Shown here: positions 7,350 to 63,660 of the stretch, in pieces
How the letters are laid out: every line of letters starts with the position of its first letter
Position numbering within the stretch: the stretch's first letter is position 1
Virus record (IMG/VR): IMGVR_UViG_3300024999_000053
Location: 53,964-117,963 of that record
Source of the DNA: a virus
Direction: 5' to 3' (one strand)
Length of the DNA: 64,000 nucleotides
Position numbers and translations under genes: made by a program
Notes under the pieces: model-generated
What the model saw: the letters and a program-made list of their open reading frames with translations, nothing else
The model's database searches: none
Told to the model about the DNA's origin: nothing

Positions 7350-7440
7350 CCGAGCAAATTCCAGTTTTAATGGATAGGTATAGACTAGGTAGTAAATCGA
7401 AGTAATCAAGAGCAAATGAAAGTATAAGAGAGGTAAAATA
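7350..7440 (+). repeat. AAA-N7-TTT core plus 55-bp arm, copy 1 (homologous to 39652-39742)
   Basis: Arm 7386-7440 matches 39688-39742 at 46/55 with identical 17-nt spacing to the core. Confidence 0.8.
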
Positions 7441-7534
7441 GGGTATAAAACGTAATTTAGGTTAATTTGATAATATTTAGTTGGTTTTGGAGAGATGGTT
7501 TTATGATCATCTCTCTTTTATTATTGATAATTTT

Positions 7535-7599
7535 ACTAAATGGCTTTTATGGGTAGCTCCCATATCAAAAAGAAGGTGTCCTTTCCTTCGCCATTTAGT
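7535..7599 (+). ncRNA. Three-way-junction leader RNA, copy A
   Basis: Outer stem ACTAAATGGC/GCCATTTAGT; hairpin TATGGG-TAGCT-CCCATA; hairpin GAAGG-TGTCCTTT-CCTTC. Confidence 0.6.
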
Positions 7600-7666
7600 T
7601 TTTATATTTTTAAATTAAAGGACAAGAAAAAGTGAATAAAAATAAAAAAGAAAAGGACGTGTTAAA

Positions 7667-8788
7667 ATGGAAAATGTATTAACAAAAGTTTATGAAGAAC
7701 AAGAAGTAGCATTCAGAGAAAACAATGGACAAAGTGAAGTAAGAATTGATGAAGTGGCTAGATTTTGTGGTTGGACAGAAATTGCAAAAAGCGGAAATGA
7801 ATGCATTAAATGGGCAAGAGTCAATAAACATTTAGTTGATTTAGGAGCGTCGACAGTAGTGGCGACAGGTGATTTTATTCCAGAATACATTATGTATCCA
7901 CTTATAGGTAAAGCAAAAAATGATAGAGCAACACAATTTATGTTATGGGTAGGAAAGGTATTAGTAGAAATTAGACAGAATGGTGCTTATATTTCTCCAA
8001 ATATAACAGAAGAGCAAGAAATCAAGTTAGATAAATTCTCGACAAATAAAAAGATGAAGAATACATTCAAAACTTGTAATATAGAATCGATAGAGAATGA
8101 ATATCGTGAATGCATGATGTATCATAAAAATAAAGATGGTAAAGAGAAAAATGGTATTCAGAATATAATAATTAATGCTTTAAGTGACAGAAAACAAACA
8201 TTAATAGATAGTGGCAAAGGGTCTTTTGCTTTAGTTTTAGCAGAAGTTGTGAATACAATCTCAAAAAAGAAAACTGAAACTAGCAATAAGAGAAATGGAC
8301 AAACAATTAGATATAAGAATGGAATTATAGATAAGCAGACACAAATAATCAATGAAAAGGATGAGGAGTTAAATAATTTAGAAAGTAAACTGAATTATTA
8401 TGAACCAGAAGACTATGAATGGATTGAGTTAAATGTCCATCCATTTTCTCATAATTACATGACAAGCGCAGCAAAAGATTGGAATACTGGAAATCCAAAA
8501 ATCGTCAAGAGTGAAGGATATTACAAATGGCAAAATAAATTTCCATATCAAGAACTTCCTACATTTGATGATTTAGGAATAGATTTTAATAAAAGAGTTT
8601 GTGCTTGGTTTAGATTTGTTGCAAAATCAACTTTTGACCCAACTAATTGTTCAAAAACTGCATTAGATACTATATGTAAGTATTACGACGTAGATGATAA
8701 TAAAATAGAAATGATGGAGTGCAAGAAAATAAATAGTTGTAAAGAATTTTGGGAAGGAAAAATCTATATAGCATTTAGGAATCAATAA
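7667..8788 (+). CDS. BRO-N/antirepressor-like protein with C-terminal RusA-like domain
   Basis: DEVARFCGW...FIPE...A..F..WV...L.EIR.NGAY (BRO-N); C-terminal FDPTNCSKTALD...DDNKI. Confidence 0.7.
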   Translation: MENVLTKVYEEQEVAFRENNGQSEVRIDEVARFCGWTEIAKSGNECIKWARVNKHLVDLGASTVVATGDFIPEYIMYPLIGKAKNDRATQFMLWVGKVLVEIRQNGAYISPNITEEQEIKLDKFSTNKKMKNTFKTCNIESIENEYRECMMYHKNKDGKEKNGIQNIIINALSDRKQTLIDSGKGSFALVLAEVVNTISKKKTETSNKRNGQTIRYKNGIIDKQTQIINEKDEELNNLESKLNYYEPEDYEWIELNVHPFSHNYMTSAAKDWNTGNPKIVKSEGYYKWQNKFPYQELPTFDDLGIDFNKRVCAWFRFVAKSTFDPTNCSKTALDTICKYYDVDDNKIEMMECKKINSCKEFWEGKIYIAFRNQ

Positions 8789-8872
8789 TACATAAATAAA
8801 ATAATATTGAATAACGAGGGGTTGTCCGATCTGGACAACTCTTTAATAATCAATAAAAGGAGAAATAAAACA

Positions 8873-9136
8873 ATGCACACCTATTTAAAATTAAATGAAG
8901 AAAAGTTAGATTTATTGATTAAAGTATTACATGATTCACAATATGAAACTGAACATGAAAAGGTCATAGCAAATGAATTATATGAGAAATTTAGACATTT
9001 GTGTTTAGATAATTTTTATAATCTTGGTGAAGGTTGGGATGATGAAGAGGAAGATGTGGATGAGAATTGTGAAAATGATTTATCTCTTGTGAAGAAAAAG
9101 GATATAGCAGGTTATGATGATGATTTGGGTTGGTAA
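8873..9136 (+). CDS. Hypothetical acidic protein
   Basis: AAAGGAG RBS before ATG 8873. Confidence 0.6.
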   Translation: MHTYLKLNEEKLDLLIKVLHDSQYETEHEKVIANELYEKFRHLCLDNFYNLGEGWDDEEEDVDENCENDLSLVKKKDIAGYDDDLGW

Positions 9137-9280
9137 TACTTGTCCAATTTAATTATGTACAGATAGAACGCATATCCTATTAGTAAATTAATAAATAAAG
9201 TTAACAAATAAAATATTTCAATAGAAATTGAGACATTTCATTAATTTGAAGTGTCTTTTATTTGTGTTGAAATAACACAT

Positions 9281-9338
9281 AAGCAGACTAGGATAGGCCA
9301 TCCGAAAGAAACACTCGCCTTAGTGTTTTTGTCTGCTT
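9281..9338 (+). ncRNA. Three-way-junction leader RNA, copy B
   Basis: Outer stem AAGCAGAC/GTCTGCTT; GGAT-AGGCC-ATCC; AAACACT-CGCCTT-AGTGTTT. Confidence 0.6.
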
Positions 9339-9385
9339 CTATTTTTTAATAATTAAGGCAAATAATAAAAGAAGGCGGTATAAAA

Positions 9386-11242: not shown

Positions 11243-11243
11243 T

Positions 11244-11966
11244 ATGCAGAATAATTTAGTTTATAAATTCTATAATAGCAATAATGAATTACTTTATGTT
11301 GGTATCACAAATAGTATGAAACTTAGGCTAAAGCAACACAAGCAAGATAAAGAATGGTTTACTGAAATCAAAAAAATATGTGTTAGTGATAAAATGACTA
11401 GGAATGAAGCACATATCTATGAAATATACTATATTGCAAATGAAAATCCAAAATATAATGTAGACTATATCAATGGTGGCAAGGTAAGTTTTATGATGGG
11501 TGAATTATCATTCAAAGAATATAAAAAAGAGAAGAGAAAGAAGATAGACGTTGATGTTGTTTTGAGAATGTATAATGAAGGTAAATCAATAGATGAAATA
11601 GCCACAGAATTAAAATACTCTACTGAATACATTACTCAAAACTTGAGATCAAAATTAATAGAATTAGGGGAAGTAAAACCAAATCGTAGAAATGGGAAAA
11701 ATGAAAGATTTGAAATGTTTGTTAATTGTCTTACATACTTGTCTAATAAAAAATATTTTACAATAGAAGATATTGTATATAAGTTCATGAATGATTATGA
11801 ATGTACAGAGGAAACTGCAAAAACATATTATAAAGACGAGTTTGCAGTTTTACTTATTGAAGAGGTTAATAAAATAGGTTTGAAAAGAATTAGAGCGAAT
11901 AAGATAATTAAAGAGCAATTTGGAATGATAGGGGATGGGTATCCATTTATTATTTGTGAAATTTAA
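11244..11966 (+). CDS. GIY-YIG nuclease plus HTH plus C-terminus paralogous to the upstream primase
   Basis: VYKFY...LLYVGIT...RLKQH; HTH GKSIDEIATEL; RBS GAGGG before ATG 11244. Confidence 0.75.
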   Translation: MQNNLVYKFYNSNNELLYVGITNSMKLRLKQHKQDKEWFTEIKKICVSDKMTRNEAHIYEIYYIANENPKYNVDYINGGKVSFMMGELSFKEYKKEKRKKIDVDVVLRMYNEGKSIDEIATELKYSTEYITQNLRSKLIELGEVKPNRRNGKNERFEMFVNCLTYLSNKKYFTIEDIVYKFMNDYECTEETAKTYYKDEFAVLLIEEVNKIGLKRIRANKIIKEQFGMIGDGYPFIICEI

Positions 11967-11996
11967 TAATAAATCAATAAAAGGAGTGGATACTTA

Positions 11997-12221
11997 ATGA
12001 GTAACAATTGCAAATACTGTTCTAATAATAAATCTGATGAGATTAATGAGATTATTATTTCAAATAAAGATAATATATGGAATGAAGATGAAGAATTTTT
12101 CATTTATATAGAAGACAATTTAATGATTATGTTGGAAGCAGACGATAATGGTTCAAGTTATCTTGGAGATAGGGTAATTAATTATTGTCCAATGTGTGGA
12201 AGGAAATTGAATGATAAGTAA
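11997..12221 (+). CDS. Small zinc-ribbon phage protein
   Basis: CKYC...INYCPMCGRKL. Confidence 0.75.
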   Translation: MSNNCKYCSNNKSDEINEIIISNKDNIWNEDEEFFIYIEDNLMIMLEADDNGSSYLGDRVINYCPMCGRKLNDK

Positions 12222-12241
12222 GTTATAAATAAATATCCCCA

Positions 12242-12271
12242 TTGACATAAATATAAAAATAATGTTACAAT
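12242..12271 (+). promoter_or_regulatory. sigmaA promoter TTGACA-18-TACAAT (extended -10)
   Basis: Near-consensus boxes with TG. Confidence 0.65.
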
Positions 12272-12276
12272 ACATT

Positions 12277-12368
12277 TGTAAATGATTCATTATTATTTTC
12301 CATTTCATTTACACTCTCTTTCTTTGTGAGGGAGTTCTAATTTTATTAGGATTCCCTCTATTTTTTTC
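12277..12368 (+). ncRNA. Candidate small RNA ending in an intrinsic terminator
   Basis: Promoter upstream, no RBS-led ORF, hairpin TGTAAATGA/TCATTTACA, terminator GAGGGA...TCCCTC plus T-run at 12328-12367. Confidence 0.45.
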
Positions 12369-13745: not shown

Positions 13746-13848
13746 AATATAGTTTTAATAAAAGTAAAGTTAATAAATAAAATATACGGGAGAGAACTTG
13801 CAAGTGTAATGGGTGGCCACCCTCCCTGATCAGGAGGATGATTTAATA

Positions 13849-14847
13849 TTGGAAGAGAACGTTTTTATGGTTGAATACATAATTGAGAATGGTTTAGATA
13901 AATTAGCATATGGTTTTATTTATATAACTACTAATTTAATTAATGAGAAGAAATATATTGGTCAAAAGATTTTTGACGATTATGGAAATGGTAGATGGAG
14001 GAAATATTTAGGTAGTGGGAAATATTACAAAAGAGCAGAAAGTTTATATGGAAAAGATAATTTTTCCAGAATTATTGTTGCAATTGCTTATTCTAAAGAA
14101 GAACTTAATGAGTTAGAAATGATATTTATAAAAAAATATAATGCCGTAAAAAATATAAATTTTTACAATATAACCGAAGGAGGAGGTGGAATGTCAGGAT
14201 ATCGTCTATCAGAAGAAACTATTCAAAAAATACGTAAGAAAAATTTAAATATGTCTAAAGAGACAAAGGATAAAATGAGTAAATCAGCAAAAGGTAAAAT
14301 TGTCTCAGAAGAAACAAAGCAAAGAATGAGTGCATCTCACTTTGGAAATAAACACTCAAAAGATACTATACAAAAAATGAAAAAACCAAAAACCGAAGAA
14401 CATAAATTAAAAGTCGGTTTGGCGTTAAGGGGGAGAAAAAGAACAGAAGAACACAATAGAAAATTAAGTATCGCATTAAAAGGAAAGAAACACTCTTTAG
14501 AAACCATAGAGAAATTTAAATTAATACAAAAAGGTGAAAGAAACCCAATGTATGGTAAACATCATTCAAATGAAACAAAAAATAGAATTCGTAAATCAAA
14601 AATTGGACGCTGTTTAGGAGAGGATAACCCCAATGCAAAAAAAGTTATATGTATCAACACATTTAAAATATTTTCAACTCTAAAAGAAGGAGCCAGTTTT
14701 TATAATGTTTGTGAATCAAGTATATCACTATGTTGTAACAAAAAGTTAAAATCAGCAGGTAAACATCCAATTACAAATGAAAAATTAGTCTGGCAATATT
14801 ATTCAGAATACATAAAGTCAAACCCTCCACTTCCAACTGCAATATGA
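13849..14847 (+). CDS. GIY-YIG homing endonuclease with NUMOD3 repeats and NUMOD1-like C-terminus
   Basis: GFIYITTNLINEKKYIGQK, YLGSG, FYNI; repeats SEETKQRMS/HSLET/NPMYGKHHS; TTG start after AGGAGG. Confidence 0.9.
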   Translation: MEENVFMVEYIIENGLDKLAYGFIYITTNLINEKKYIGQKIFDDYGNGRWRKYLGSGKYYKRAESLYGKDNFSRIIVAIAYSKEELNELEMIFIKKYNAVKNINFYNITEGGGGMSGYRLSEETIQKIRKKNLNMSKETKDKMSKSAKGKIVSEETKQRMSASHFGNKHSKDTIQKMKKPKTEEHKLKVGLALRGRKRTEEHNRKLSIALKGKKHSLETIEKFKLIQKGERNPMYGKHHSNETKNRIRKSKIGRCLGEDNPNAKKVICINTFKIFSTLKEGASFYNVCESSISLCCNKKLKSAGKHPITNEKLVWQYYSEYIKSNPPLPTAI

Positions 14848-17055: not shown

Positions 17056-17224
17056 TGATTTAATACCTCCTATCTTAGTTATAATCATTGGATAATATGT
17101 GCATGTATATTATACCATTATTCATCGTAATTATACTAATCTAAACTGCAGTTTAGATAGTTTTATTTATCCAATAAAAGTATGTTTTCCTGCGGTAAGT
17201 TAAATTTAATAATAGGAGTAAATA

Positions 17225-33762: not shown

Positions 33763-33972
33763 ATCCGATAAATTTTATCTTCTATTTGCCGAACTCCTCA
33801 TATGTTTCCCAAATCATGTCTATTACATCTCTCCGTATTTCTTCTTCGCTATAACCAGAACTGAGTACACCTTTTCATTTATTTTTGTAATTAAAAACTC
33901 AATAAAACCTCTTATTCCTATAGACATTTTATATCCCCCTTTTCTAATTATCCTTAAAACATTTCTTTAAAG

Positions 33973-34215
33973 CTAATAATTTTTATGCTGTATGTCTTCA
34001 TCTTTTATATTAAATCTGTTTTTAATTACATCTAACATTAGAAAAGAATGTGCAAGTTCTTCAGTTAAATCGTCTATTGAGAATTTTTTACTACATCTTA
34101 GAAATCTTGTTAATACTTTTGTAACTTCACTCATTTCCTCAATTGTACAATAAATAGCATCATTTATGTCTTTTTCGGTTTCCAATCTTTTTTGAAGTGT
34201 TTTTAATTCTTTCAT
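33973..34215 (-). CDS. MazG-like NTP pyrophosphohydrolase
   Basis: IEEMSEV...LTEELAH helical motif; C-terminus probably frameshifted. Confidence 0.6.
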   Translation of the reverse strand: MKELKTLQKRLETEKDINDAIYCTIEEMSEVTKVLTRFLRCSKKFSIDDLTEELAHSFLMLDVIKNRFNIKDEDIQHKNY

Positions 34216-34267
34216 TGATTTTATTCCTTTCTTTTTTAATACAACGAAATAGGTTTTTCGAGGGATA

Positions 34268-36260
34268 TTATTTTTCTGCTTTATACATATCTACTAATTC
34301 TGATCTAAATAAGTCTAATTTTTTTAAAGCATATTCTAATAATTCCCCATCTTCAAAATCTTCTTCTCTACAATATTTACAACTCCTATAAACATCGCTG
34401 TCTTTATTCTCTTCTTCGTTTCTCCATCCATCTTCTTCAGCACATTCATCTGAACACCATTTTCTACCGCAATCACAACTTACATAATAACCACATTCAC
34501 AAGTTGACTCACCACATACATCGCAATCAAAGAAATCTACACTCATTTTAATTTCCTTCTTTCTTTTATTTCTAAAACAACTTTTTAGCATCTTCAACGA
34601 CTAATTTATTTTGATAAATTTTCTCAAAACCATTCTTTAATTCTGGAAGAAAATAGTGTGTTTGTGGATAAGTTGTTTTCAATTCAAAATTACCTTCTGC
34701 ATAATCAATAAAGTCCAAATATTTTTTAATAAAATTAGAATCACAATTATCAAAACATGTATTTATAAAAAATTTTGTATTTACAATTTCTGCTATTGAT
34801 TTTAAGAATAACATTATTGAATCAGTAAGTTCCTCATTTGTTTCTATTCTATCTGGATTTTCTTGTTTAGTTTTATTTACGTATTCGGTTATTTCACCAT
34901 ATGCTTTCTGATAACCATTAATTTCTCCTTTCTCAAAACCAATATTATATCCTTCGGTTTGACCATTTTTAAATCCTAGTTTTTGTCCAGTCTCTGCTCC
35001 TTTAGCGTACCCTTGGTCATATCCTAATTGTAATATTTTGTTGTAAAATTTAGAGATAGGATTGAATATTGTAATCAACTCCTTAATTTAATCTCATTCC
35101 CCAACACTTATATTCTTTTTTATTCATCTCGTTTCCATTTAATAATACATTTATGTAATTATCATCTAGAATTTCTGTGACAATTCCCATTTTATGATTG
35201 TAATAAACCTCATCATCAATTTTAAAATCAAAATCAGTTAAATAGTAATTTAGATAATTATATCTCTCACAAAATTTATTTAATTCATCATATGTAATAA
35301 TTTCACACTTTTTATTATATTGGTTAAAAGAAAAAGTAATTGTTGTTTGTGATAATTCGAATATATACTTTTCTAGTTTACTGTCAGTTTCTCTTTTAAT
35401 ATCTAAAATTTCTAAATCAAATTTCTTTCTGAAGTTTTCTATAACCGTGAAAATAGAATCAATTGATCTCATAGCATGATAATCATTATTCATTTCAATG
35501 GTTTCGTTAAACATTTCCCATCTTCCTTTCTTAGTTTGGATAATCATTATTTCTTGGATTATATCACATCTTTTCTTATATATTCATTAATAATACTCTT
35601 TAAATCACTCTCAATTTCATTATTCCAAAACCAAATAGGAGTATTAAATTTAACTTCACAATAATCATATCTTTCACACCACTCACAATCATGCATAGAC
35701 TGAGCAGTACCTAGTGGTTCATGTTCTATATTACCTTGATTGATGTAATAATTACATCCAGACCATTTATAGTTCTTTTCTTGTGGGTGATGATTAAAAT
35801 AATCGGCATTAATGGCATCTAACTCTTCTTGTGTGGTAATTTTATATAATTTCAATATTAATTTTCTCCTTTTTTGATTTATTTAATTTTCAAATTTTTC
35901 TTTAAGTTTTAAATATATCTCATATTCTTTATCAACTTCACTCTTTATCTCCCTATTCCAACATTCGCTACAGATTCTATATTCTTTAAGAAATTCTTTT
36001 TCAAATTGTTCTTTGCTATCATAATCTTCTAATTTAATAGTTTCATGATTTGCTTCTTGATATTTACATTCACCTTTTTTATTCTTTGATTTGAAGGCTA
36101 TTTCAAATCCTGTGCCAATTAAACAGTCAAAATACATAGGACAATAATCATAAATTAATAATTTGTCTCCTAAATCATTTTCTCCACTTCTCCATTTTAG
36201 AAAGTCTGATTCTTTATCATTCGCAAGGACATATTCCCATAGTTTTATTTCAATCACCAT
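34268..36260 (-). CDS. Hypothetical genes: Cys-rich 34268-34546, GxxxG-repeat (Yae1/FliH-like) 34572-35078, 35083-35514, 35559-35855, 35883-36260
   Basis: Tightly packed co-oriented ORFs with RBS; GYDQGYAKGAETGQKLGF repeat. Confidence 0.6.
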
Positions 36261-39632: not shown

Positions 39633-39651
39633 ATTTTTGCTCCTTTCTAAG

Positions 39652-39742
39652 CAAATGAAACATATTTTTTATTGGGTGCTATCATATTAGGTAGTAAATG
39701 GAAGTATTAATGAGTAAATGGAAGCATGAAAGAGGTAAAATA
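39652..39742 (+). repeat. AAA-N7-TTT core plus 55-bp arm, copy 2
   Basis: Direct repeats AGTAAATGGAAG; 46/55 identity with 7386-7440. Confidence 0.8.
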
Positions 39743-39753
39743 TGATATTTTGA

Positions 39754-40233
39754 TTAATTTTGATTAATATCGGTTAAATTAACCTCGATTTTACTATTGC
39801 TAACCAATTGTCTATATTTAACTCCTGCTATATCTAGAATAAATCTAGAAGCAATTGTTTGTTCTGAATCGCTGTATTTATTACTCAAGTATACAATTTC
39901 TGATATACCAGACTGGATTATACTTTTTGAACATTCGTTACAAGGAAATAATGTTGTGTAGAGAATACAATTAGTTAGGTCAACTTTTGCATGAAGAATA
40001 GCATTTTGCTCTGAGTGGACTACATATAGATATTTTCCTTCCAATCCTTCTTTATTTTGCCAAGGCATTTGAGAATCATCACAATTATTTGGCATACCAT
40101 TATATCCAGTAGAAATGATTCTATTTGATTTATTGACAATACATGCACCAACTTGAGTTCTTGTGTCTTTACTTCTAAGTGACGATATGTATGCTACGGA
40201 CATGAAATATTCGTCCCAATTTATGATTTGCAA
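39754..40233 (-). CDS. dCMP deaminase
   Basis: WDEYFM, RSKD..TQVGA, GYNG, HSEQNAI, PCNEC. Confidence 0.95.
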   Translation of the reverse strand: MQIINWDEYFMSVAYISSLRSKDTRTQVGACIVNKSNRIISTGYNGMPNNCDDSQMPWQNKEGLEGKYLYVVHSEQNAILHAKVDLTNCILYTTLFPCNECSKSIIQSGISEIVYLSNKYSDSEQTIASRFILDIAGVKYRQLVSNSKIEVNLTDINQN

Positions 40234-40751: not shown

Positions 40752-41549
40752 TTAATTATTTAATGATTTATTCTTAAACACAGTGTTTACATCATTGTCT
40801 CTATTAACCATTGCACCAAAGTATTTGATTTCTCCTTCTCTTCTTAATTCTATAGCGTCTTCTATATTTGCACGATAACCTAAAAACTTCTTCTTACCAT
40901 TTAATTTTATATTAGCTTCCCATTTTTTATGACAACTATCCCAAGATACACCAGGAAATCCAGAAGTATTATTAGATTGCTTCCCTTTATTAATTCCATT
41001 AATTTGATATGTAGTAATTTCAAGATTGTATTTTCTACAATTCTTTCTATCTCTGTCTATATGATTTACAACCTTTGATTTGTCTTTAGGAGGTTTAAAA
41101 TTCATTACATAATTATGTAATCTTCCTATAGCGTGATTAGCAACATATTTTTCTACAGTTAAATTCCATCTATGAATTTTACACTTTTCTACATCTTCTA
41201 TGTCTATTGGTGCTCTTGCCTCTTCAATTTGATCTTCATTATATAGTATTATTTCAGCATATGTATCATGTAAAACTATTTCATTTAAATCCCTATTAGT
41301 TCTCCGTTTTGTATAACCAAATGTTTTCATTTGTTGATAATGTCTTCCGCAATAATATTTATCTTCTATACAGCCAACTTTTGTATCACTACCACAAATT
41401 TCACAAATATGTTTTGTTTTATCTATGTCTTGTAATATCTCTCCGAATTTCCATAATTGCCAATAGTGTCTTTTACAAATATTTTTATTTAATTTTTCAT
41501 TAAATCTAACACCTTTATTACTATTACATATTTCACAAAATCTCTCTAT
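40752..41549 (-). CDS. HNH endonuclease with AP2 domain and two N-terminal CxxC...CxxHY fingers (probable ATA start)
   Basis: VNHIDRDRKNCRKYNL, NTSGFPGVSW...W.A.I...LG AP2; frame open 73 codons upstream of ATG 41330. Confidence 0.8.
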   Translation of the reverse strand: MERFCEICNSNKGVRFNEKLNKNICKRHYWQLWKFGEILQDIDKTKHICEICGSDTKVGCIEDKYYCGRHYQQMKTFGYTKRRTNRDLNEIVLHDTYAEIILYNEDQIEEARAPIDIEDVEKCKIHRWNLTVEKYVANHAIGRLHNYVMNFKPPKDKSKVVNHIDRDRKNCRKYNLEITTYQINGINKGKQSNNTSGFPGVSWDSCHKKWEANIKLNGKKKFLGYRANIEDAIELRREGEIKYFGAMVNRDNDVNTVFKNKSLNN

Positions 41550-44162: not shown

Positions 44163-44236
44163 TTATGTATCCTCCAATTATTTATTTTATTCTTACATTA
44201 TCTAATACGATAAAAAGATTGTTTGATTGATATCTA

Positions 44237-44524
44237 TTATTCCACTAACAAATCATATGTCTTTTCAAATATATCAATTTTACAAGGATAAATTTCTTCA
44301 CTAACTCCAATAATAAGCATATCTTGTGGCGTAAAATACATAAATCCTTCAAGTGTAGGAATTAAATAACATTCATCATTTTCATGAGTAACAGGATGAC
44401 CATTATAATTAAATGACCAAGGCATATCACATATTATATTTGCTCCATTATTCCTTCCGTATTCTAAGAACTCGTCAAATGTAATTGCATCAATTATTAC
44501 TGGTTTCTTACGATATTTTGCCAT
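44237..44524 (-). CDS. Conserved phage protein flanked by two AAA-N7-TTT sites
   Basis: KYRKKPV, IPTLEG, YPCK.DIFEKTY. Confidence 0.8.
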   Translation of the reverse strand: MAKYRKKPVIIDAITFDEFLEYGRNNGANIICDMPWSFNYNGHPVTHENDECYLIPTLEGFMYFTPQDMLIIGVSEEIYPCKIDIFEKTYDLLVE

Positions 44525-44568
44525 TTATTTTACCTTCTTTCTTATAAACTATCCGATAAAAATCTTCT

Positions 44569-45170
44569 TTAATTGCTCCAACTTTCTATAATGTGATCTA
44601 TTTCTGAAATTAATAAATACGACAACCCTTTTAACCATTTAAATTCATCTTTTGTAAGATTAGGATATTTATTTAATAAAACTTTATATTCCTCTTTTAC
44701 TTTATTAAAATCCATTATATGTCACACCTCCTACAAATCCCAATGTCTATTTTTCTTCAGAATCTCAATAACCTCTCCTGCATATGGTTCATCAATATTT
44801 ATAACCAAATACTGATTGCTAGGGTTTTTATTAAACTTAACTCTACTAATTCTAATATTTTTAAGAATTCTACTTAAATCAATAGAATCTTGCTCTGGTG
44901 CATGTTTGTATAAGTCATCTTGTTTTATGACTACATATTTGTGGAAGTCAATACCATGTAAAGAAATATTATTTATATAAATTATGTATCACCTTCTTTC
45001 TTAACAATAAAATTATCAGGTGCTTGCCAATACCATTGATATTGATTAAATTCACCACAAATATTCTTAAATTTCATGTAAACTTGCTCTGCATCAGGTG
45101 TTGCTAATATTCTCAAACAACTAGAAGATTTTTCACAATCAGTAAATTGACACATTGATATGTTAGCCAA
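44569..45170 (-). CDS. Small hypothetical genes (44569-44715, about 44730-44960, 44982-45170)
   Basis: RBS-led short ORFs; stop of 44569-44715 lies inside the 44553-44576 site. Confidence 0.5.
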
Positions 45171-45443
45171 ACTTTAATCTTCCATCCTTTCATTTTTAAT
45201 TTCTGATTCATTATTATAGAACTCTAATGATTCAATTGTCACCTTTTTATAATATAGTTTTTATTATACTCTTCAAAGTCACACTGAATCCAATCGCCAT
45301 CTCTGCCGTGTAAAATTTTAATATGTATTCACCTCTTTTGATTTAGCAAGAATTTGATTGGTGGTTCTAATAATCTGTATGATCAAACTCTTGCTAATGT
45401 TATGATAATTATTTTATGATTTGTGTTTAGGAATTATGATTAT

Positions 45444-45590
45444 TTAACCAATCTTTTTGTAATATGTAGTTGTATTGGTTAGATCGCTTTTACTGAACAT
45501 GAAGTTTGCTGTGTCTTGGGAATTGTATTCTTGAGAAGTGCAGGTAGTCCAAATTCCGTCGATTCGATTGATGAGTTTTGTGGGATTCAT
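45444..45590 (-). CDS. Stand-alone 48-aa protein MNPTKLINRIDGIWTTC...
   Basis: Perfect TTGACA-17-TATAAT (45645-45617), GAGGAGGTGA RBS, downstream hairpin 45343-45397. Confidence 0.65.
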   Translation of the reverse strand: MNPTKLINRIDGIWTTCTSQEYNSQDTANFMFSKSDLTNTTTYYKKIG

Positions 45591-45663
45591 TTTTGTTTCA
45601 CCTCCTCTCTATTTATATTATAGCATGTGGGGAATTTGATGTCAAGGAATTTTATTTATTGGT

Positions 45664-48600
45664 TTAAACAATTGTCTGAAACATATCTTTCAAATATGTT
45701 TGCTTCTTTTTTGTTTCTCTCGTTTTGATTGCGGTTCTTATTGCTGAATTTTGCCCGACTAATACACAATATTTCTTTGCTCTTGTAACGCCAGTATAAA
45801 GCATTTCTGTGTTCAGGAGGACATATGCTGAAGATTCAATACATACAATTGCCGTATGAAAACCTGATCCTTGAGAACGATGAATTGTGCAAACGTATGC
45901 CAGTTCTAATTTCTTAACCCCTGCTCTATCTAACACTATCTCTCCAATTCCCACAAAATCAACAACACAAACTCCATTGTCAATTTCTTTTACTATTCCC
46001 ATATTCCCATTGAAGATTGGAGTTATCTCTCCATTAGTATTAATTGCCCTATAATTATTTTTAGTGTTAATAACTTTATCTCCAAGTTTAATTTTATAAA
46101 ACTTATCCTTGTCAATTTTTACTTCAATAAAAATATCTTTATCGTCTACTGGATTGATTATTGATTGAATTTTATTATTTAAGTTATATGTTGATAAATC
46201 TCCTCTTGTTCTCATTGGAGATAATATTTGTGTTTCTATGATGTCATTGGTAATTTTATAATGTTTCAAGAAATGTTTTAAAACTCTATCAGATGGAGAA
46301 TCATCTTCTTTATAGATGTCTAATTCCATATCTTGAAGTTCTCCAAGTATCAAATTACCTTCAAATTTAGGTTTTAGTATTTGTTCTTGTTCAGAAATTT
46401 TAATTGAGGTAACAATAATTCCTGACATTTCTGCTTGTCTGTGGATTTTAGTTAAAGTTATACTTGGTATTACATTTGAATTTAGTATGTCCGAAAAAAC
46501 TTGACAATTTCCTATTGGAGTTAATTGTTTTATATCACCAACTATGATTAATTTTGCTCCGTTTGGTATTGCTTTAAGTAAACTTAAAAATATATCACCA
46601 TTTATCATCGTTGTCTCATCGATTAGTACTACGTCTGTATCCAGTGGATTCTCTTCATTATATGTAAATTCACCATGAGAATACCCTAAAAGTCTATGTA
46701 TGGTGCTTGCTTTTAAACCTGTTGCTTCTGTAATTCTGACTGATGCTTTCCCTGAGAGGGCAGCTGCCGATATAATATAATCTTTAAAAACTTGAACAAT
46801 TCCATTTAAAGTAGCAGTCTTACCACAATTACCAGTGATAAAAATACTTCCATTTCTTCTTAAAATCAACATATGAGAAGGAACTGTAAAACAATATTTA
46901 TATCCATCGATTGTTTTATACTTTTCTATTTTATTTATATTATATTTGTCTTTTGCTTGAATACCTACCGTAATAGCTCTCTGTGATACATGTACATCAT
47001 AGTCTATAGATTTTCTAGTATATAGTTTTCCACTCGTTAAATAAGATTGCCCCCTTCTGTCTTGAAATCCTAATTTTGCTCTTTTCCCAGTTGCAGAAAA
47101 AACAAATTGCACGAAATCGGCAGTAGATTTTACGTTTGCGGAAAAACTTTCTCTATTGTTCCTAATAGAGCCATCCCAATTTAAAACTTCAGACGCAATT
47201 ATTTTCAATTGTTCATAAGAGCAATTATACCAATATTCTGCGGTGAATTCTTTTTCTAGTCTGGGGGGATTTACATAGAAATCTGAAAACCCCTCTGCTG
47301 CAGAATCTGCTTCTCTCCATTTCAAATTATTGAGTTTAAATAATTCTATTAATCTTTTCTTTTTCCTATCTTTTCTAACATGAAAGCGGCAAGTGAAATT
47401 TGAATTCCCTATCATTAATGATCCGTCTGCTATTACAGCAACCATCAATCTAATTTGGTCATCAGTTAAATCAATCCCCTTTCCATCATATTTGAATGTT
47501 GTAATAAATCTACCAGAAAAACCATGTTGGTTTCCATAGTGCATTTCTATCAAATCACTACATTTCTTTATATTTAAATTATTTTTGGAACTTAAATATA
47601 CTATATTATGATTATCACAAACACATTGATCAACGCTCCCAGTTTCATTTTTAATATGATTTAAGTATTCTTCTTTTTCTTTTATGTATCTTTCTGGTAA
47701 TACTAACTCTGCTGTTCCGTCTCTATTATACTGAAGTACATTTTCACCTTCAATATAATCGGAAATCTTCTTCCATCCAACCCCATTAAAATATTCCGTA
47801 TCACAATCCACACACCCTGCTGATCCAGTTAATGCAACAATATTCTTATCGATAATTAATTTAACTGCTTCAATTTGTTCGGAAGTGTAAGCAAAACCTT
47901 GTTCTTCCTCCACACTTTTAATCGTATCTTCCCAGTCTCCAAGTTCAAATTCTTCACTACGTTCTGCATTTAGTAATCTAATTAATTCATTGTGAATATT
48001 CATTTCTAAATCGTAGTATCTCTTTAGTCCAATTAATTGACCGTCATCAGAAACATTAATTTCTTTTTTATCAACTAATTGTTTAGCTACATCATTTATA
48101 ATATCTTGTTCAATAAATCCAATTTGATCAAAAACAATATTCATTAATTCACTAAAATGTAAGTAACTCCTTCCTATTTCTCCATTTCCAGCCAATGTAT
48201 TTATAATACAAGCTTTTACTCTCCTTGAATCATTCCCTATCATACCCATTTTCTGTGCTATTTCATCAGCTTTTTTAAAACCAACACCACTAACCTCAAC
48301 TAATCTATATGGATTATTTTTAACAATATCAACCACTGTGTCAGGAGATTTATAAAAATCCAATAACTTATTTATTAGATTAGCACTCAAGTTGGCATTG
48401 CTCAATTCTGTATAAATTTGAGAATAGTCTTTACAATCTTCAAATTCTTCAATTATTCTCATCGCGGTAGCATGACCTATTCCATTAATTGACGTAAGTG
48501 CAGAAATGTCTTTATCTTCTAATAAGGTAATTACATCATCATATTTTTCAAATAATTTATATACTATATTTGGATTAATTATGCCTTCTAAAAAATCAAT

Positions 48601-57858: not shown

Positions 57859-57906
57859 ATAAGAAAGGGAAGCATTAAAACTTCCCTATTCTCATTAAAC
57901 CAATAC

Positions 57907-58908: not shown

Positions 58909-58991
58909 TACCCCTTATTTAATTTATTATTTTTGTTGGAGTAGATGATTTTTCAATCTACTTCAACTCTCAATTTTAAGTAAGTTTGTTT

Positions 58992-59939
58992 CTATTTTTG
59001 TTGTTGAAAAGGATTAAAGGTAACTGGAGGAGTTGTAGTTCCTTGAACAAAAGGATTTCCAACTGGTGTATTTGTGGAGGGTTTAGCTACTTTAGCAGGT
59101 TCGTTTTTGATTTTATCAAGTTTAAGTTTACGTTTAGTCAATGCTTGACTATATTCAGTTTCATCTATTTCATGTTCTGGAGGAGTACCCATTGGATTTC
59201 CACCAGTAACTTCCTTGCGACTAATAGTATTTGTAACTAATCTAACATTGTCAGCACCAAATGCCATTTTTTCAACAATTTCAACAGTTTCTTTGGTGTT
59301 TACAAGTTTTCCGACCAGTTTAGCGAAGCCACCTTCAAAGAATCCAATTGATATGAAGGGTTCAGCTATTGCTTTTGGTACAATAGTCACCACTGGGATG
59401 ATAGCACCTTGATAACCAAGCACATTCATTGTTACTTTTTTATTTCCAGATAATTCACCTTTGAATGATTCATCCTCAATCTTAGTAATAATTCCTGTAA
59501 TCTCAAACTTTGATTCCAAGGGAGTTTTTTCTAAGTCTTTAGCTTCAATTCTATTAGCAAAATTCCCCTTTACTCCTGAGTATGTTTTTACTTCGCCATC
59601 TTTACCTTTGTAGTCTTGAACATTGAATTGACCAGATCCAATTTTAATATTATCTGCTTCATTTGGAAATTGCTCTAATGCTTTATATTCGTTCATTACT
59701 GTTTCTAAACCTTTAAAGATTAAATTCTCACCAGAACCATCTTTTTTTACTTTTTTAGAGAAATAAGATACTTCAATTTCACTACCATCTGAAGTTCTTA
59801 CAACAAGATCACCACTAATAGCTTGTTCCTTTCCAATTACATTACCATCTTGATCTTTTTTGTCTACTTCTTTAATTGTCAAGTCTTTTTTAACGAGAAC
59901 TCCAGCGATAAACACATTATTCATTGTTTCTTTTAACAT
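58992..59939 (-). CDS. Putative ssDNA-binding protein (YorF-like)
   Basis: N.V.I.G.L tandem OB-like strands, flexible tail ending NPF; first gene of replisome operon. Confidence 0.6.
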   Translation of the reverse strand: MLKETMNNVFIAGVLVKKDLTIKEVDKKDQDGNVIGKEQAISGDLVVRTSDGSEIEVSYFSKKVKKDGSGENLIFKGLETVMNEYKALEQFPNEADNIKIGSGQFNVQDYKGKDGEVKTYSGVKGNFANRIEAKDLEKTPLESKFEITGIITKIEDESFKGELSGNKKVTMNVLGYQGAIIPVVTIVPKAIAEPFISIGFFEGGFAKLVGKLVNTKETVEIVEKMAFGADNVRLVTNTISRKEVTGGNPMGTPPEHEIDETEYSQALTKRKLKLDKIKNEPAKVAKPSTNTPVGNPFVQGTTTPPVTFNPFQQQK

Positions 59940-60116
59940 ATGTATTAATTCCTTCTTTCAATTATTATTTGTTTTATTATTTAATGCACATGATCTATTA
60001 AAATATATTGAAAGAAGGTGGCCCACAAATTCTTTTTACAGGAACCCTACACTTGCCTTTGTTTTTCAACCAATCAATCCTCTCTATAAAATATTATTTA
60101 ATTATTAACCACTATA

Positions 60117-60145
60117 ATTATAACATAATCAAATCTCCATGTCAA
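60117..60145 (-). promoter_or_regulatory. Consensus sigmaA promoter of the replisome operon
   Basis: TTGACA-17-TATAAT with TG. Confidence 0.85.
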
Positions 60146-60355
60146 CAAATTTTATTTCTTACTTCTAACAAAACTAAACCACATAAAATTCCACTTTCAT
60201 TGGATAGAATATATAACATAATTATTTATACATATTTTATGACCACAAACCCTTATATAGCAACGGTTACAGGGTTATTTTTAGTAATTTTGCTTAAAAT
60301 TAAAGTTTATAGTCATTTTAGACATAATCCAATAAAATGAAAATTTCTTGAGGGT

Positions 60356-63300
60356 CTAATAATTGCTGATATTTTTGATTTTTGAAGATAATTCTCTCAC
60401 AAAATCATTAATATCCATTTTTGAATCAATGGTAATATTAATTGTAATATTTTGTACAGTGTTTTCAACCTTTGATTCTTCTTCTACATCTTCTTTCTCA
60501 ATCTCTTCAACCCAATCCCATTCTTTAGGTTCTCTATTACATAACACTTGTGATAAAACTTCTACACAGCTTTCATATTGTTTAATAGCCATAATATCAT
60601 AATTGCTATCATCACAATGTTCTAAGTCGTCACATATGTCATTGAAAAATACTGTTCCTTCAGTATACCCTGCATTAATATCTTCTACATCGTAAAAAAC
60701 TAAGTCGTTTTCATGATCGGGTAATAATGCATAAATTTTTTCATCTCTCATTTTAAACAACATTGAACTATTTAATTCTGATTTTTTCATTTTATCCATC
60801 CTTCCCTTCAATTTCATCTATAGTATCCAAACATCTTCCACTTAGATTCATAATTTTTGCATTTTGTTCTTTTGATAATCCATTATCTTTAACACCTGAC
60901 ACTAAATAATTCAAATGATTGGTAATTTCACTTAATTCAAATACACTTAGCATTTACTCTAACTCCTCTCCACTACCACAAACAAATCTCCACAATCTAT
61001 CTTATGCAACCAATATAATTCATCGCTATCTAAATTAACTTGAATGCGATAATGCAATGAAGTTTCTTCCATAATAACTCTATAAGTATCTTTTTTAAAT
61101 GATTTAAAATCTTTAATGAATCTCACTTTTCTTATGATTGTCACCTCCTTAATTATTTACCGATCTTATGTATTTGAAGTGCATTATATTTTTCAGAATA
61201 CACATTCTTAACTTTTTCTGGTATTAGTTTATCATTAAACATTTCCTTGCAAAATTTATTTAATTTTTCATAATCTTCCATAAAGATTTTCAAGTTTTTT
61301 ATAAAGTCTTCGTCCATGATTCACCTCCTTAAATGAAATAACTGTTTTAAATTATTTTATTAAAGATTCGATAGTTCTCTCTAACCCTAATTCTTGTCTA
61401 CAATAATGTAAGAAATCTTTACTATTCATTAAACTTTGAAGTTCATTTAATGAGTAATTTTTAGTAGATGAATAACATACCACTTCTTTTGTAATATTTC
61501 TTCCTTCTGATTGCCAAAGACTTAATTCACAATTATCAACCATATGCCTACTATTAAATAATTCGATTGCTTCTTCCTTAGATTCTGCAAATATTGGAGT
61601 AATCCATCTATATGAATAATCTTTTCCTTTGAATCTATATTTAAACAAATATAATTTATATAGGTCATATGTGAACTTAACTGCAATAGTATAGACTTTC
61701 CCCATAATTCACCTCTTTTCATCCCTAAAACTAAACTTTCCTTGGATTAGTGTACTTCAGTTCCAAATTCACAAACACACTCATAATTTCCTTGTGTTGT
61801 ATTATCGATATGTATTGGAACTAATGAGTTTTCAAGATTATAAATATCTCCATCTTTAACTTCTTTCCCATTGACTGTTTTTAAAGGAAGTTTATCAACT
61901 GTATATTTTAAATATAATGCTTTCCCAACTTTACCATGATTATCTTTATTCAAATTTTCACCATCTTTATAATCTATTCCTCAATAATCTCAACATCATC
62001 TTCATACATCCATAACCACTCACCCTTGCTATCTTGAACAAATACATCAAGATCGTCCCATAATGTCTGTGATTCTTCCTCACCAGTTAAAACATTTGCC
62101 CATTTTACCTTTTCTTCTGATGACATATTTTTAAAATATTTTGCTTCGATTAATGATCCGACAGGAATATCTTCGATAAAATCATTGGTTAGAATTTTAA
62201 CTTTCACTTTCTTCGCCTCGATTCATTATTTATTTCACATAACCCAACCACATATTAATTATAACATATCGAACTACGTGTGTCAAATATTTTATTTTTA
62301 TATTTAATAAAATTATTCATCTTTCTAATCCCATGAAAATATCCTTTCAAGTTATCGATATGTAACTCCTTTATATTCTTTCATATCGCTATTTAATTTA
62401 ACTTCTTCTTTTAATGAATATTCAATATCCAAATGTTGCAAAGCACTCGTAAACCCATCCATAAAATCGTCAGGATTCCCATGAATGTTATCATTCCAGT
62501 ATATGATATATTTTTGATCTTCATCAATTAGAGCAGTTTGTGCGTAATCTCCGAATTGAGCATCACTAAATCTTACATCGTTAATTGACGTACACTCACC
62601 TTCATTGATTAATTCATCTAATGTTTCTTGATCAATAACTGCTACTTGAGTTAGATTTAACATTGCTTATTCTCTCCTTTCAAATGAATGTTCTTTGAGT
62701 TATTTATTTTCAATTTTTGCATATGCATTTATACATCTTTTACAAGTCACATTCTTATCTTGAATATCCTGAACATCTTTACCAACATATTGTAGACATA
62801 AACTCATATTGGATTTTAGATATGCGATATGTATGACTCCACCTTTTGTTGCTTGAGCCTTCTTTAAGTCCATATTTATTCTCTTTTCTTTAAAATTTAT
62901 TAGATTTTACTCTTCCATTTTTGATAAGCTTTCTCACATAATATAAATAACATATTATCTCCTAGACAATCGTACCACATTTTATAACATTTCATAATCT
63001 CTTGAGCGTCACTGTCACCATCATTGGCTAATTTACCTATATATAGACCATCTTTTTTTAATGCGTTAACCAATTCTTCTTTTCCTAAAATCATCTGAAA
63101 CTTCCTTTCTCTCTATTTATTGAAGTTTATACCCGAAGTTCTCCAAAGTTTCATCATCCATAATTGAATAAAAAATATCATTAAAGGTACCATTAGAAGC
63201 TATATCTCTTTTACAAATACATAAATATTTGGCTTCATGTATTATGAAATTTGGCTTTAATATACTAAATATAAATAACCATTCATTACTGATTGCCTTT

Positions 63301-63660
63301 TGGCCATCCAAATAAAAACTATCTCCAATTTTATATTTCATGATTAACTCCCTCTTTTTATAAATATCATAAAACGAATATTTAACTTAATAATTTACCA
63401 CAATCTTTACATGCAATCCAACCATAAGGATGAGTTGATTCAGTATGTAAATGATGACAACCAGTATCCTCTTTTCTACATTCACATTTATCAGATAATT
63501 GTTTAACCTTATCAAGAAACCATTTTTGAAAATCTACTGCATTACCTTCAAAATTCATGTCTGAACTGATTCCTTTTCCACAATACATACAATCATATAT
63601 AACTGCCATTGTATAGTTCACTTTCCTCTCTAGTAAATCTAACATTTTAAGATATTCCAT
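60356..63660 (-). CDS. Array of small hypothetical early genes (60356-60817, 60959-61144, 61352-61705, 61747-61953, 61974-62207, 62352-62663, 62900-63094, 63117-63341, 63382-63660 and shorter ones)
   Basis: Co-oriented ORFs with strong RBS, several bounded by AAA-N7-TTT sites. Confidence 0.6.
62258..62286 (-). promoter_or_regulatory. Consensus sigmaA promoter
   Basis: TTGACA-17-TATAAT with TG. Confidence 0.85.

What the first reader, a model, noticed from the sequence alone, without database searches (positions are those of the whole stretch)
7350..63388. Quasi-palindromic AAA-N7-TTT sites at gene boundaries: candidate integron-like cassette system
Seen: sites resembling CCNATNAAA-N7-TTTNATNGG with variable 7-bp spacers, AAA starting at 7356, 17176, 33956, 39658, 44212, 44558, 60185, 60334, 61336, 61727 and 63371, plus N6 variants at 34247 and 62336. 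Most lie between a stop codon and the next RBS. Two contain the stop itself (44569-44571, 63382-63384). Pairs bracket single genes (33973-34215, 44237-44524, 61352-61705). Established: inverted binding sites around a 6-8 bp spacer are the core-site geometry of tyrosine recombinases. Inference: small accessory genes are gained and lost as cassettes by a recombinase encoded elsewhere. Caveats: bare AAA-N7-TTT is common by chance at this AT content, so the evidence is the flanks and positional bias; a repressor operator is the alternative.
Basis: partly seen in the sequence, partly recalled or inferred. Interest (0 to 1): 0.8.

Follow-up and report, generated by a model that had tools for sequence, protein, structure and literature searches.

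The report
Dyad-symmetric docking sites between phage genes
About half of the listed sites belong to a real 28-base mirror-symmetric DNA motif that sits between genes in this uncultured phage and its relatives, most likely as a docking site for an unidentified paired protein rather than as an integron-like cassette junction.

Summary
The window is the right half of a 118-kb, 29% GC SPbeta-like phage record, probably of a Clostridium host. Refined, it is ATCC-N4-AAA-N6-TTT-N4-GGAT, a 28-bp 11-6-11 dyad. Of the 13 listed sites, 7 fit with 2 or fewer mismatches of 14 fixed bases, 3 are borderline and 3 are chance A/T tracts. In the whole genome, matches with at most 1 mismatch number 6 against 0.42 expected. 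Two complete related phages not used to define the motif carry 8 and 5 such sites against about 0.1 expected, nearly all intergenic. Sites often abut the upstream stop codon and end just before the next ribosome-binding site. RNA hairpins are weak, so a dimeric DNA-binding protein is the best reading (operator or stoperator-like). The genome's one Xer-like tyrosine recombinase gene is followed by a perfect site, but the two complete motif-bearing phages lack its ortholog. Gene-swap breakpoints fall at site edges and also at site-less gene boundaries, and no spacer crossover or excised form was seen. The integron-like reading is therefore unproven and unlikely. This scan has found similar intergenic palindrome arrays in other phages, including SPbeta-like ones.

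The parts
7348..7375 (.). Perfect 28-bp site (0 of 14 fixed bases missed). It overlaps by 1 nt the stop of a 26-codon ORF.
17169..17196 (.). Site with 2 mismatches; the left arm is perfect.
34239..34266 (.). Site with 1 mismatch, 1 nt after the stop of gene 34268-34597 (- strand).
60177..60205 (.). Site with 1 mismatch (spacer 7) or 2 (spacer 6), 33 nt upstream of a sigma-70-type promoter. The positional homologue in L003 is a perfect 11-bp-arm palindrome.
60327..60355 (.). Site with 2 mismatches that abuts the stop of gene 60356-60817. The L003 homology breakpoint lies at its outer edge.
61721..61747 (.). Site with 1 mismatch (spacer 5) that overlaps the stop of gene 61747-61953 by 1 nt.
62328..62355 (.). 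Site with 2 mismatches that overlaps the stop of gene 62352-62663. One metagenome contig variant carries a perfect version.
39650..39677 (.). Borderline site (3 mismatches) in which only one arm is good.
44205..44231 (.). Borderline site (3 mismatches). The outer GGAT box is not kept in close relatives.
44551..44578 (.). Borderline site (3 mismatches) with one perfect arm, containing the stop of ORF 44569-44715. The outer box is not kept in L052-L054.
33956..33968 (.). Listed site that does not fit the motif (no hit at 3 or fewer mismatches). Chance A/T tract.
61336..61348 (.). Listed site that does not fit the motif. Its flank is the ribosome-binding site of the next gene.
63371..63383 (.). 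Listed site that does not fit the motif. Relatives L004 and L005 diverge exactly at the stop codon and have no site there.
7366..7456 (+). Conserved 90-nt non-coding block that begins at the right arm of site 7348. Copy 1.
39669..39757 (+). Copy 2 of the 90-nt block, beginning at the right arm of site 39650. It has the same + orientation although the local genes are on the - strand.

Best explanation
The real members are copies of one 28-bp dyad-symmetric double-stranded DNA motif, ATCC-N-A-T-V-AAA / 6-bp spacer / TTT-B-A-T-N-GGAT. It lies in the short spacers between genes of this SPbeta-like phage and of co-occurring AT-rich phages.

The most likely role is a docking site (operator) for a dimeric phage-encoded DNA-binding protein. 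From many gene boundaries this protein would control or block transcription of the small-gene operons, working like the stoperators of cluster A mycobacteriophages or the SPBRE/MrpR system of SPbeta.

Shown: the motif, its dyad symmetry, its excess over chance, its intergenic and stop-adjacent position, and its presence in independent genomes. Inferred: that a protein binds it, and what binding does. The binding protein is not identified. The phage's Xer-like tyrosine recombinase is only one candidate.
For: - Excess of the full motif in G000: 6 vs 0.42 at 1 or fewer mismatches. Excess of the half-site in intergenic DNA: 18 vs 6.2 +/- 2.5, reached by 0 of 200 shuffles.
- Relatives, 36 loci totalling 332 kb: 9 hits vs 0.57, with reverse-pattern control 0, and all hits at spacer 6 or a neighbouring register.
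- Held-out complete genomes. G007: 8 vs 0.09 at 1 or fewer mismatches, and 20 (15 intergenic) vs 1.67 at 2 or fewer. G006: 5 vs 0.11, and 12 (all intergenic) vs 2.03.
- The frequency matrix of 38 sites is mirror-symmetric at every fixed and semi-fixed position.
- Many sites pair one good arm with a non-complementary arm, and RNA folds are weak. The 11 window sites fold at -0.3 to -5.4 kcal/mol, and only 1 of 11 beats 195 or more of 200 shuffles. This points to protein recognition of duplex DNA, not a hairpin.
- Of 38 sites, 12 start within -3..+3 nt of the upstream stop, and most end 3-12 nt before the next Shine-Dalgarno sequence.
- SPbeta's own early region shows the same design with another word. 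TAAAA-N6-TTTTA occurs 14 times vs 0.67 expected, and 12 of 14 lie at or between gene ends.
- Known precedents: stoperators (PMC9283540, abstract seen in the search listing) and SPBRE bound by the recombinase-fold repressor MrpR (PMC10516654, passages read).
Against: - No binding protein was identified. The 10 tested proteins, 9 of them among the 17 shared by G000, G006 and G007, gave no DNA-binding Pfam domain beyond HNH/AP2 nuclease parts.
- At 28 bp with 11-bp arms, the site is longer than usual repressor operators.
- At homologous positions in close relatives the outer boxes are sometimes lost: 44551 in L052-L054 and 61721 in L132/L133. Individual copies are therefore weakly constrained.
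- Most sites are not at recognisable promoters.
- The G000 statistics are post hoc, although the G006 and G007 statistics are not.
Confidence: 0.45

Rival explanations
1. The sites are core sites of a tyrosine recombinase. Either one of them is the resolution site of a plasmid-like prophage and the others are secondary sites, or, they are junctions at which gene-plus-site modules are exchanged like cassettes.
For: - The 11-6-11, 28-bp geometry equals that of dif. The abstract of PMC2731167 in the search listing gives 28 nt, and passages of PMC5357621 read give XerS and XerH arms ending in AAAA or TTTT, with the site next to the recombinase gene.
- G000 has one catalytically plausible Xer-like recombinase (HxxR, H and Y aligned to XerC-like and XerA chains; PF00589 at E 1.7e-16). 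A perfect site starts 9 nt after its stop. The site is also there in L028 and, as another allele, in L029/L030.
- Homology breakpoints sit at site edges or near the spacer/arm border. Relative positions are +3, +2, -7, -1, -5, +20, -8, +20, +22, -8, +27 and 0.
- The 90-nt block shared by 7348 and 39650 starts at the first base of the right arm.
- The window also carries an actin-like partition gene and an FtsK-like gene, which fit a plasmid prophage.
Against: - G006 and G007 (both estimated 100% complete) have 5 and 8 strong sites but no ortholog of this recombinase. Their PF00589 genes lie more than 1.8 kb from any site.
- There is no site after the recombinase gene in 8 of 11 relatives at 86% identity or less, nor in Tsamsa, FADO, MT835469 or the Clostridium MAG.
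- Spacers differ between sites; the best pairs share 5 of 6 bases.
- Breakpoints at +20..+22 coincide with the end of the upstream coding sequence.
- Many swaps lack any site: the boundaries of 63382-63660, 62900-63094 and 60959-61144, and the extra gene in L014.
- The gene family 44237-44524 occurs in many contexts without the site.
- No site-to-site joint appears among the metagenome contig joints shown (that table is truncated).
Confidence: 0.15
2. The element acts in RNA. It would be a hairpin in the polycistronic mRNA between the stop codon and the next ribosome-binding site, serving processing, stability or translational coupling, or as a weak terminator.
For: - The consensus is self-complementary.
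- Some copies fold well: L003 at -18.4 kcal/mol (0 of 200 shuffles as good), L004 at -7.2 (1 of 200), and the recombinase-adjacent copy at -7.9 (7 of 200).
- The position is always between a stop and a Shine-Dalgarno sequence.
- The spacer shows a sense-strand bias, with A at its last two positions in 19 and 21 of 38 sites.
Against: - Of the 11 window copies, 10 fold no better than shuffles.
- The variable N4 parts of the two arms are usually not complementary.
- There is no U-tract. The terminator scan found 4 vs 4.2 expected in 29-48 kb, none at a site.
- No Rfam family matched.
Confidence: 0.1
3. There is no function. The copies would be shared ancestry of intergenic linkers spread by recombination among co-infecting phages, plus chance A/T tracts.
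For: - Three to six of the 13 listed sites are at background level.
- Sub-families share spacers by descent, for example 7348, 60177, G002:2952 and L133:3174.
- The variable regions are 10-40 times deeper than the core genes in metagenome contigs, so the modules are widely shared.
- The outer boxes decay at some homologous positions.
Against: Descent alone does not explain the mirror symmetry kept at both arms in sites with unrelated spacers and N4 parts. It also does not explain the 50- to 90-fold excess in two genomes that share only 17 (both) to 52 (G006) proteins with G000.
Confidence: 0.15

Closest known systems
Stoperators of cluster A mycobacteriophages (L5 gp71-type repressors); PMC9283540 and PMC6550527, seen as search listing and abstract starts
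   Same: Many copies of one protein-binding word are spread over the phage genome in short intergenic spaces, away from promoters. They are thought to block transcription through gene boundaries.
   Different: By that abstract, stoperators are asymmetric and are bound by a monomeric repressor. Recalled, not from a call: they are 13-14 bp and have one orientation relative to transcription. The sites here are 28-bp dyads, and no repressor is identified.
SPBRE elements bound by MrpR (YopR) in Bacillus phage SPbeta; PMC10516654, passages read
   Same: A related phage lineage, with a repeated element in about ten intergenic regions. It is bound by a repressor that has a tyrosine-recombinase fold but no recombinase activity.
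   Different: No YopR homologue was found in this 72%-complete record. SPBRE is a 15-bp motif at promoters. Its sequence appears only in a figure, so it could not be compared.
TAAAA-N6-TTTTA palindromes of SPbeta's early region and the 18-bp palindrome of SPbeta-like phages noted earlier in this scan (e1-5724962)
   Same: Both have an A-tract, a 6-bp spacer and a T-tract at the core. Both sit at or on stop codons between small early genes. The phage lineage is the same.
   Different: The word differs: the exact SPbeta word occurs 0 times in this window vs 2.06 expected. The sites here add outer ATCC/GGAT boxes. One literature search found no paper on this palindrome.
dif-type core sites of Xer recombinases, including the single-recombinase XerS/difSL and XerH/difH modules; PMC5357621 passages and PMC2731167 abstract
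   Same: Two roughly 11-bp inverted arms flank a central region of 6 bp or so, about 28 bp in all. The arms end in A or T runs. One copy lies directly beside the recombinase gene.
   Different: dif is one site per replicon, whereas at least 8 sites occur here. Motif-rich relatives lack the recombinase ortholog. The adjacency is not kept in most recombinase relatives.
Integron attC sites and gene cassettes
   Same: An imperfect palindrome follows the 3' end of a gene and often overlaps its stop codon. Some sites bracket single small genes.
   Different: Recalled, not from a call: attC sites are 57-141 bp, are recognised as folded single strands, and form one array beside intI, attI and Pc. The sites here are 28 bp and dispersed over more than 100 kb on both transcription arms. 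The recombinase is Xer-like and lies 44-106 kb from the window's sites.
PeSL (promoter-early stem-loop) cassettes of T4-type phages; PMC2839356 and PMC4122927, search listing and abstract starts
   Same: Conserved intergenic motifs flank small variable genes, and insertions, deletions and replacements are found at them.
   Different: PeSLs combine a promoter and a terminator. Most sites here have neither a sigma-70-type promoter nor a stable stem-loop.

Membership tests
Integron (intI / attI / attC cassette array) | attC sites are long (recalled: 57-141 bp) imperfect palindromes with paired R''/L'' and L'/R' boxes | tested here: not met
   The sites are 28 bp, 11-6-11, with no second pair of boxes. 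The attC definition is recalled, not taken from a call.
Integron (intI / attI / attC cassette array) | A single co-oriented cassette array lies next to the integrase gene | tested here: not met
   The recombinase is at genome 8898-9914. The sites are scattered from genome 9923 to 116291, on both transcription arms.
Integron (intI / attI / attC cassette array) | Gene presence or absence between relatives maps to the sites | tested here: inconclusive
   Breakpoints fall at site edges in about 12 comparisons. Many swaps occur at boundaries without a site. Site edges also coincide with stop codons.
Xer/dif-type tyrosine-recombinase core site | Two inverted arms of about 11 bp flank a 6-8 bp central region | tested here: met
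   The matrix of 38 sites is mirror-symmetric. The spacer is 6 in 8 of 9 relatives' hits and in all G006 and G007 hits by design of the search.
Xer/dif-type tyrosine-recombinase core site | The site co-occurs with its cognate recombinase | tested here: not met
   None of the 5 related records, including 2 complete ones with 5 and 8 strong sites, has an ortholog. The site adjoins the gene in 3 of 11 recombinase relatives only.
Xer/dif-type tyrosine-recombinase core site | Cleavage and strand exchange occur at the spacer borders | not testable with these tools
   This needs biochemistry or raw-read junctions. Only assembled contigs were available.
Stoperator-type operator array | Many copies of one binding word lie in short intergenic spaces across the genome | tested here: met
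   Of 40 sites at 2 or fewer mismatches in three genomes, 38 lie outside long ORFs. The excess over shuffles is shown.
Stoperator-type operator array | The site is asymmetric and has one orientation relative to transcription | tested here: not met
   The site is dyad-symmetric. Only the spacer shows a sense-strand bias.
Stoperator-type operator array | The sites are bound by the phage immunity repressor | not testable with these tools
   No repressor was identified. Pfam scans of the tested proteins, most of them shared by the three genomes, gave no candidate.
SPBRE / MrpR system of SPbeta | An MrpR (YopR) homologue is encoded | tested here: not met
   There was no match at E <= 10 in the 118-kb record, which is only 72% complete.
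PeSL cassettes | The motif is a composite of an early promoter and a stem-loop terminator | tested here: not met
   Only 60177 and 62328 lie near sigma-70-type promoters. The hairpins are weak.
Intrinsic terminator | A stable G+C-rich stem is followed by a U-run | tested here: not met
   Folds are -0.3 to -5.4 kcal/mol in the window. The terminator scan found 4 vs 4.2 expected in 29-48 kb, none at a site.

The most novel reading that the evidence does not exclude
The 28-bp dyads are core sites for site-specific recombination, by the phage's Xer-like enzyme or by non-orthologous tyrosine recombinases in relatives. Under this reading, gene-plus-site modules move between co-infecting large AT-rich phages as cassettes, which would be an integron-like exchange system native to phage early regions. 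This would explain the stop-codon adjacency, the breakpoints at site edges, the 90-nt block joined to two different left arms exactly at the spacer border, and the very high metagenomic depth of the variable modules.
Probability: 0.1. Interest if true: 0.85.

Novelty: new variant of a known kind. Interest (0 to 1): 0.45.

Why it matters
Genome-wide arrays of one binding word between small early genes keep turning up in unrelated phages, but outside the mycobacteriophage stoperators neither the binding protein nor the purpose is known. This case gives a well-defined motif with 11-bp arms and a fixed 6-bp spacer. The motif is shared by several large uncultured phages of one habitat. The same design occurs with a different word in the model phage SPbeta, where it can be tested genetically. 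If the sites prove to be silencing operators, they would show how large phages keep dozens of accessory genes under one control. If they prove to be recombination sites, they would be a new route of gene exchange among phages.

Tried and rejected
- Megablast of the polymerase region against GenBank phages found no match. Relatives were found by protein search instead.
- tRNA and Rfam scans of the window found nothing.
- Unbiased 8-10-mer enrichment in intergenic DNA recovered ribosome-binding sites, ATAAATAA leaders and extended -10 boxes, but not this gapped motif.
- A home-made Gibbs sampler timed out and was dropped.
- Simple counts of one-sided words such as TTTTANNGGAT were too few to be useful, and my strand labels there were partly wrong because of spurious ORFs.
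- I tried to derive SPBRE from seven SPbeta upstream regions. This gave only AT-rich words, and the paper gives the motif only in a figure. SPBRE therefore could not be compared.
- I tested the idea that the site next to the recombinase gene is a conserved Xer-dif-like module. It was rejected on 11 relatives and on Tsamsa, FADO, MT835469 and a Clostridium MAG.
- I looked for a shared DNA-binding protein among the 17 proteins common to G000, G006 and G007. Pfam gave none for the 10 proteins tested, 9 of which are among the 17.
- Sequencing runs: no RNA holder was listed, so expression, transcript ends and processing could not be examined.
- Only assembled contigs of four DNA runs were laid, at 85% likeness. 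The joint and loose-end tables were truncated (40 joints and 932 loose ends not shown). Many joints have short sides and may come from other phages, so no enrichment test of breakpoints was possible. The joint 45342->61336 is explained by similar ribosome-binding sites.
- The structure, complex, atlas and large homology-search tools were not used.
- Supplementary files of papers were not consulted. The ChAP-seq peak tables of PMC10516654 might give the SPBRE coordinates.

Full report
**What the DNA is.** The window is bases 53964-117963 of a 117,963-bp IMG/VR virus record with 29% G+C, estimated 72% complete.
- It carries a replication module: a PolC-like polymerase 43% identical to SPbeta YorL, a RecJ-like nuclease, DnaB, an ExoV/Dda-like helicase and NrdD.
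- It also carries an actin-like partition gene, an FtsK-like gene, a GIY-YIG endonuclease and several HNH endonucleases.
- Genes run on the + strand to 19.8 kb, then -, +, and - from 29.2 kb to the end.
- The closest recombinase relative in a bacterial assembly is a Clostridium MAG at 81% identity. The DNA holders are groundwater and sediment metagenomes.

**Check of the observation.**
- Flank mismatches of the 11 N7 sites are 2,4,6,2,5,4,2,4,5,5,7 of 10. That is the same range as the other AAA-N7-TTT strings, of which the window has 121, 32 of them intergenic.
- It shows an excess only within intergenic DNA: 3 vs 0.14, 6 vs 1.6 and 22 vs 11.8. That excess is partly circular, because the pattern was derived from those sites.

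**Refining the motif.** The sequence just after the genome's only tyrosine recombinase gene turned out to be a perfect dyad. Relatives hold near-perfect palindromes at intergenic positions. These gave ATCC-N4-AAA-N6-TTT-N4-GGAT.
- In the whole genome, hits at 1 or fewer mismatches of 14 fixed bases (spacer 5-8) number 6 vs 0.42 expected, reached by 0 of 200 shuffles. At 2 or fewer there are 13 hits (12 sites) vs 7.1. At 3 or fewer there are 80 vs 76.9, which is background.
- The half-site ATCC-N4-AAA is about three-fold enriched in intergenic DNA: 18 vs 6.2 +/- 2.5.
- In 36 non-redundant loci of relatives (332 kb) there are 9 hits at 1 or fewer mismatches vs 0.57, with reverse-pattern control 0.

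**Held-out test.** Two complete phage records were reached only because they share a small gene with the window. They were not used to define the motif.
- At 1 or fewer mismatches (spacer 6) they have 8 and 5 sites, vs 0.09 and 0.11 expected.
- At 2 or fewer mismatches they have 20 and 12 sites, vs 1.67 and 2.03 expected. Of these 32 sites, 27 are intergenic by my ORF calls. The backwards-pattern control gave 0.
- The motif is therefore real and clade-wide.
- A frequency matrix of the 38 sites outside long ORFs, from the three genomes and oriented with transcription, is mirror-symmetric throughout. It reads ATCC-N-A-T-V-AAA, 6 bases, TTT-B-A-T-N-GGAT.
- Twelve of the 38 sites begin within -3..+3 nt of the upstream stop codon. 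Most end 3-12 nt before the next Shine-Dalgarno sequence. My distances ignore ORFs under 40 codons, so some large values are overestimates. One example is site 7348, which in fact overlaps the stop of a 26-codon ORF.

**DNA or RNA.** As RNA, the 11 window copies fold at -0.3 to -5.4 kcal/mol, and only one beats nearly all shuffles. Three copies outside the window fold better: L003 at -18.4, L004 at -7.2, and the recombinase-adjacent copy at -7.9 kcal/mol.
- The N4 parts of the two arms are usually not complementary. Arms such as ATCC-TAGC-AAA recur paired with unrelated partner arms.
- There are no U-tracts, no excess of terminator-like sites and no Rfam match.
- Mirror symmetry without conserved pairing points to a dimeric protein reading duplex DNA.

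**The recombinase.** G000 has one PF00589 protein (338 aa) and no serine recombinase.
- It aligns to XerC-like and XerA structures with HxxR, H and Y in place. It is about 45% identical to the 'integrases' of Tsamsa- and FADO-type Bacillus phages, where the gene sits just before the tape-measure gene.
- A perfect site starts 9 nt after its stop. The 95%-identical relative keeps that site. Two 92% relatives have another allele about 20 nt further on. Eight relatives at 86% or less have none, nor do the distant phages or the MAG.
- G006-G010, including the two complete motif-rich genomes, have no ortholog. Their own PF00589 genes are not beside sites.
- The geometry does recall dif and the XerS/XerH single-recombinase modules. 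Even so, the motif is not tied to this enzyme.

**Breakpoints.** Blast comparisons with 20 or so related contigs show the small-gene regions to be highly mosaic.
- Relative to the sites, homology ends at +3, +2, -7, -1, -5, +20, -8, +20, +22, -8, +27 and 0. That is at site edges or near the spacer/arm border.
- A 90-nt conserved block follows both 7348 and 39650 from the first base of the right arm.
- However, site edges coincide with stop codons. The +20..+22 cases coincide with the end of the upstream reading frame.
- Many swaps have no site at all: the boundaries of 63382-63660, 62900-63094 and 60959-61144, and an extra gene in L014.
- Of three loci lacking gene 44237-44524, two keep one site-like sequence and one keeps none.
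- The outer boxes at 44551 and 61721 are not kept in close relatives.
- In metagenome contigs the variable regions are 10-40 times deeper than the core genes. Some joints or loose ends lie at 60352/60353, 60183 and 62347. The last of these creates a perfect site in a variant. Others lie elsewhere, and none of the joints shown links two sites (tables truncated, 85% likeness).

**Comparison with known systems.** The behaviour is most like operator arrays: stoperators and SPBRE/MrpR in SPbeta.
- SPbeta's own 38-kb early region has TAAAA-N6-TTTTA 14 times vs 0.67 expected. Twelve of these lie at or between gene ends, and several lie on stop codons. That word is absent from this window.
- Only 2 of the 14 SPbeta palindromes lie in promoter regions reported as MrpR peaks (aimR and yorE). 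It is therefore probably not the SPBRE, though I could not see the SPBRE sequence.
- Earlier notes of this scan describe the same kind of array in other phages, one of them in SPbeta-like phages.

**Verdict.** The motif is real, but the listed set is diluted by chance sites.
- The most likely role is as docking sites for an unidentified dimeric DNA-binding protein at gene boundaries (confidence 0.45).
- The recombination or cassette reading is not excluded but lacks its key supports (0.15 including resolution-site variants, about 0.1 for true cassettes).
- The RNA-level reading (0.1) and the non-functional reading (0.15) are less likely.

Noticed in passing
window 25813-27233: Gene 26214-27233 is an actin-like ParM/Alp7A-type protein (ALP_N, E 1.4e-10). 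The 401-nt divergent region upstream holds repeated TGTAGA / GTATAC-type words. Together these look like a partition locus with a centromere, suggesting a plasmid-like prophage.
   Followed up: partly
window 7268-7530; 39669-39790; L043:1519-1608: A 26-codon hydrophobic ORF (7268-7348) is conserved in L019. It is followed by the dyad site, a 90-nt conserved non-coding block with two direct 12-nt repeats 22 nt apart, and a terminator-like hairpin (about 7488-7527). The block recurs at 39.7 kb, antisense to the local genes, and once in a relative. It may be a small RNA or a type I toxin-antitoxin-like unit.
   Followed up: partly
window 60247-60289 and about 7195-7225; L003:651-684; L004:2921-2965: A second mobile intergenic element, an AACCCT...AGGGTT hairpin followed by T's, often lies shortly before a dyad site. 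It moves independently of the neighbouring genes.
   Followed up: partly
window 1008-2414, 13813-14847, 17780-19813, 40752-41330: Several free-standing homing-endonuclease-like genes are present: HNH types, a GIY-YIG SegE-like type with NUMOD3, and an HNH_3 plus AP2 type. Their families are shared with the two complete related phages.
   Followed up: partly
window 44716-46047 and 59368-64000: In groundwater metagenome contigs these small-gene regions have 10-40 times the summed depth of the core replication genes. The modules are evidently shared by many co-occurring phages.
   Followed up: no
L002 (SPBc2 62000-100000): TAAAA-N6-TTTTA occurs 14 times (0.67 expected) in SPbeta's early region, mostly at or on stop codons of the yoq and yop genes. 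One literature search found no paper on it.
   Followed up: partly
L026 (Tsamsa) 1489-2466; L027 (FADO) 1501-2487: Homologues of this phage's tyrosine recombinase sit directly upstream of the tape-measure gene in large Bacillus siphoviruses. This is an unusual place for an 'integrase'.
   Followed up: no
whole genome, intergenic leaders: ATAAATAA(A) is strongly over-represented just upstream of ribosome-binding sites, for example 12 vs about 1.5 expected for two of the 10-mers.
   Followed up: no
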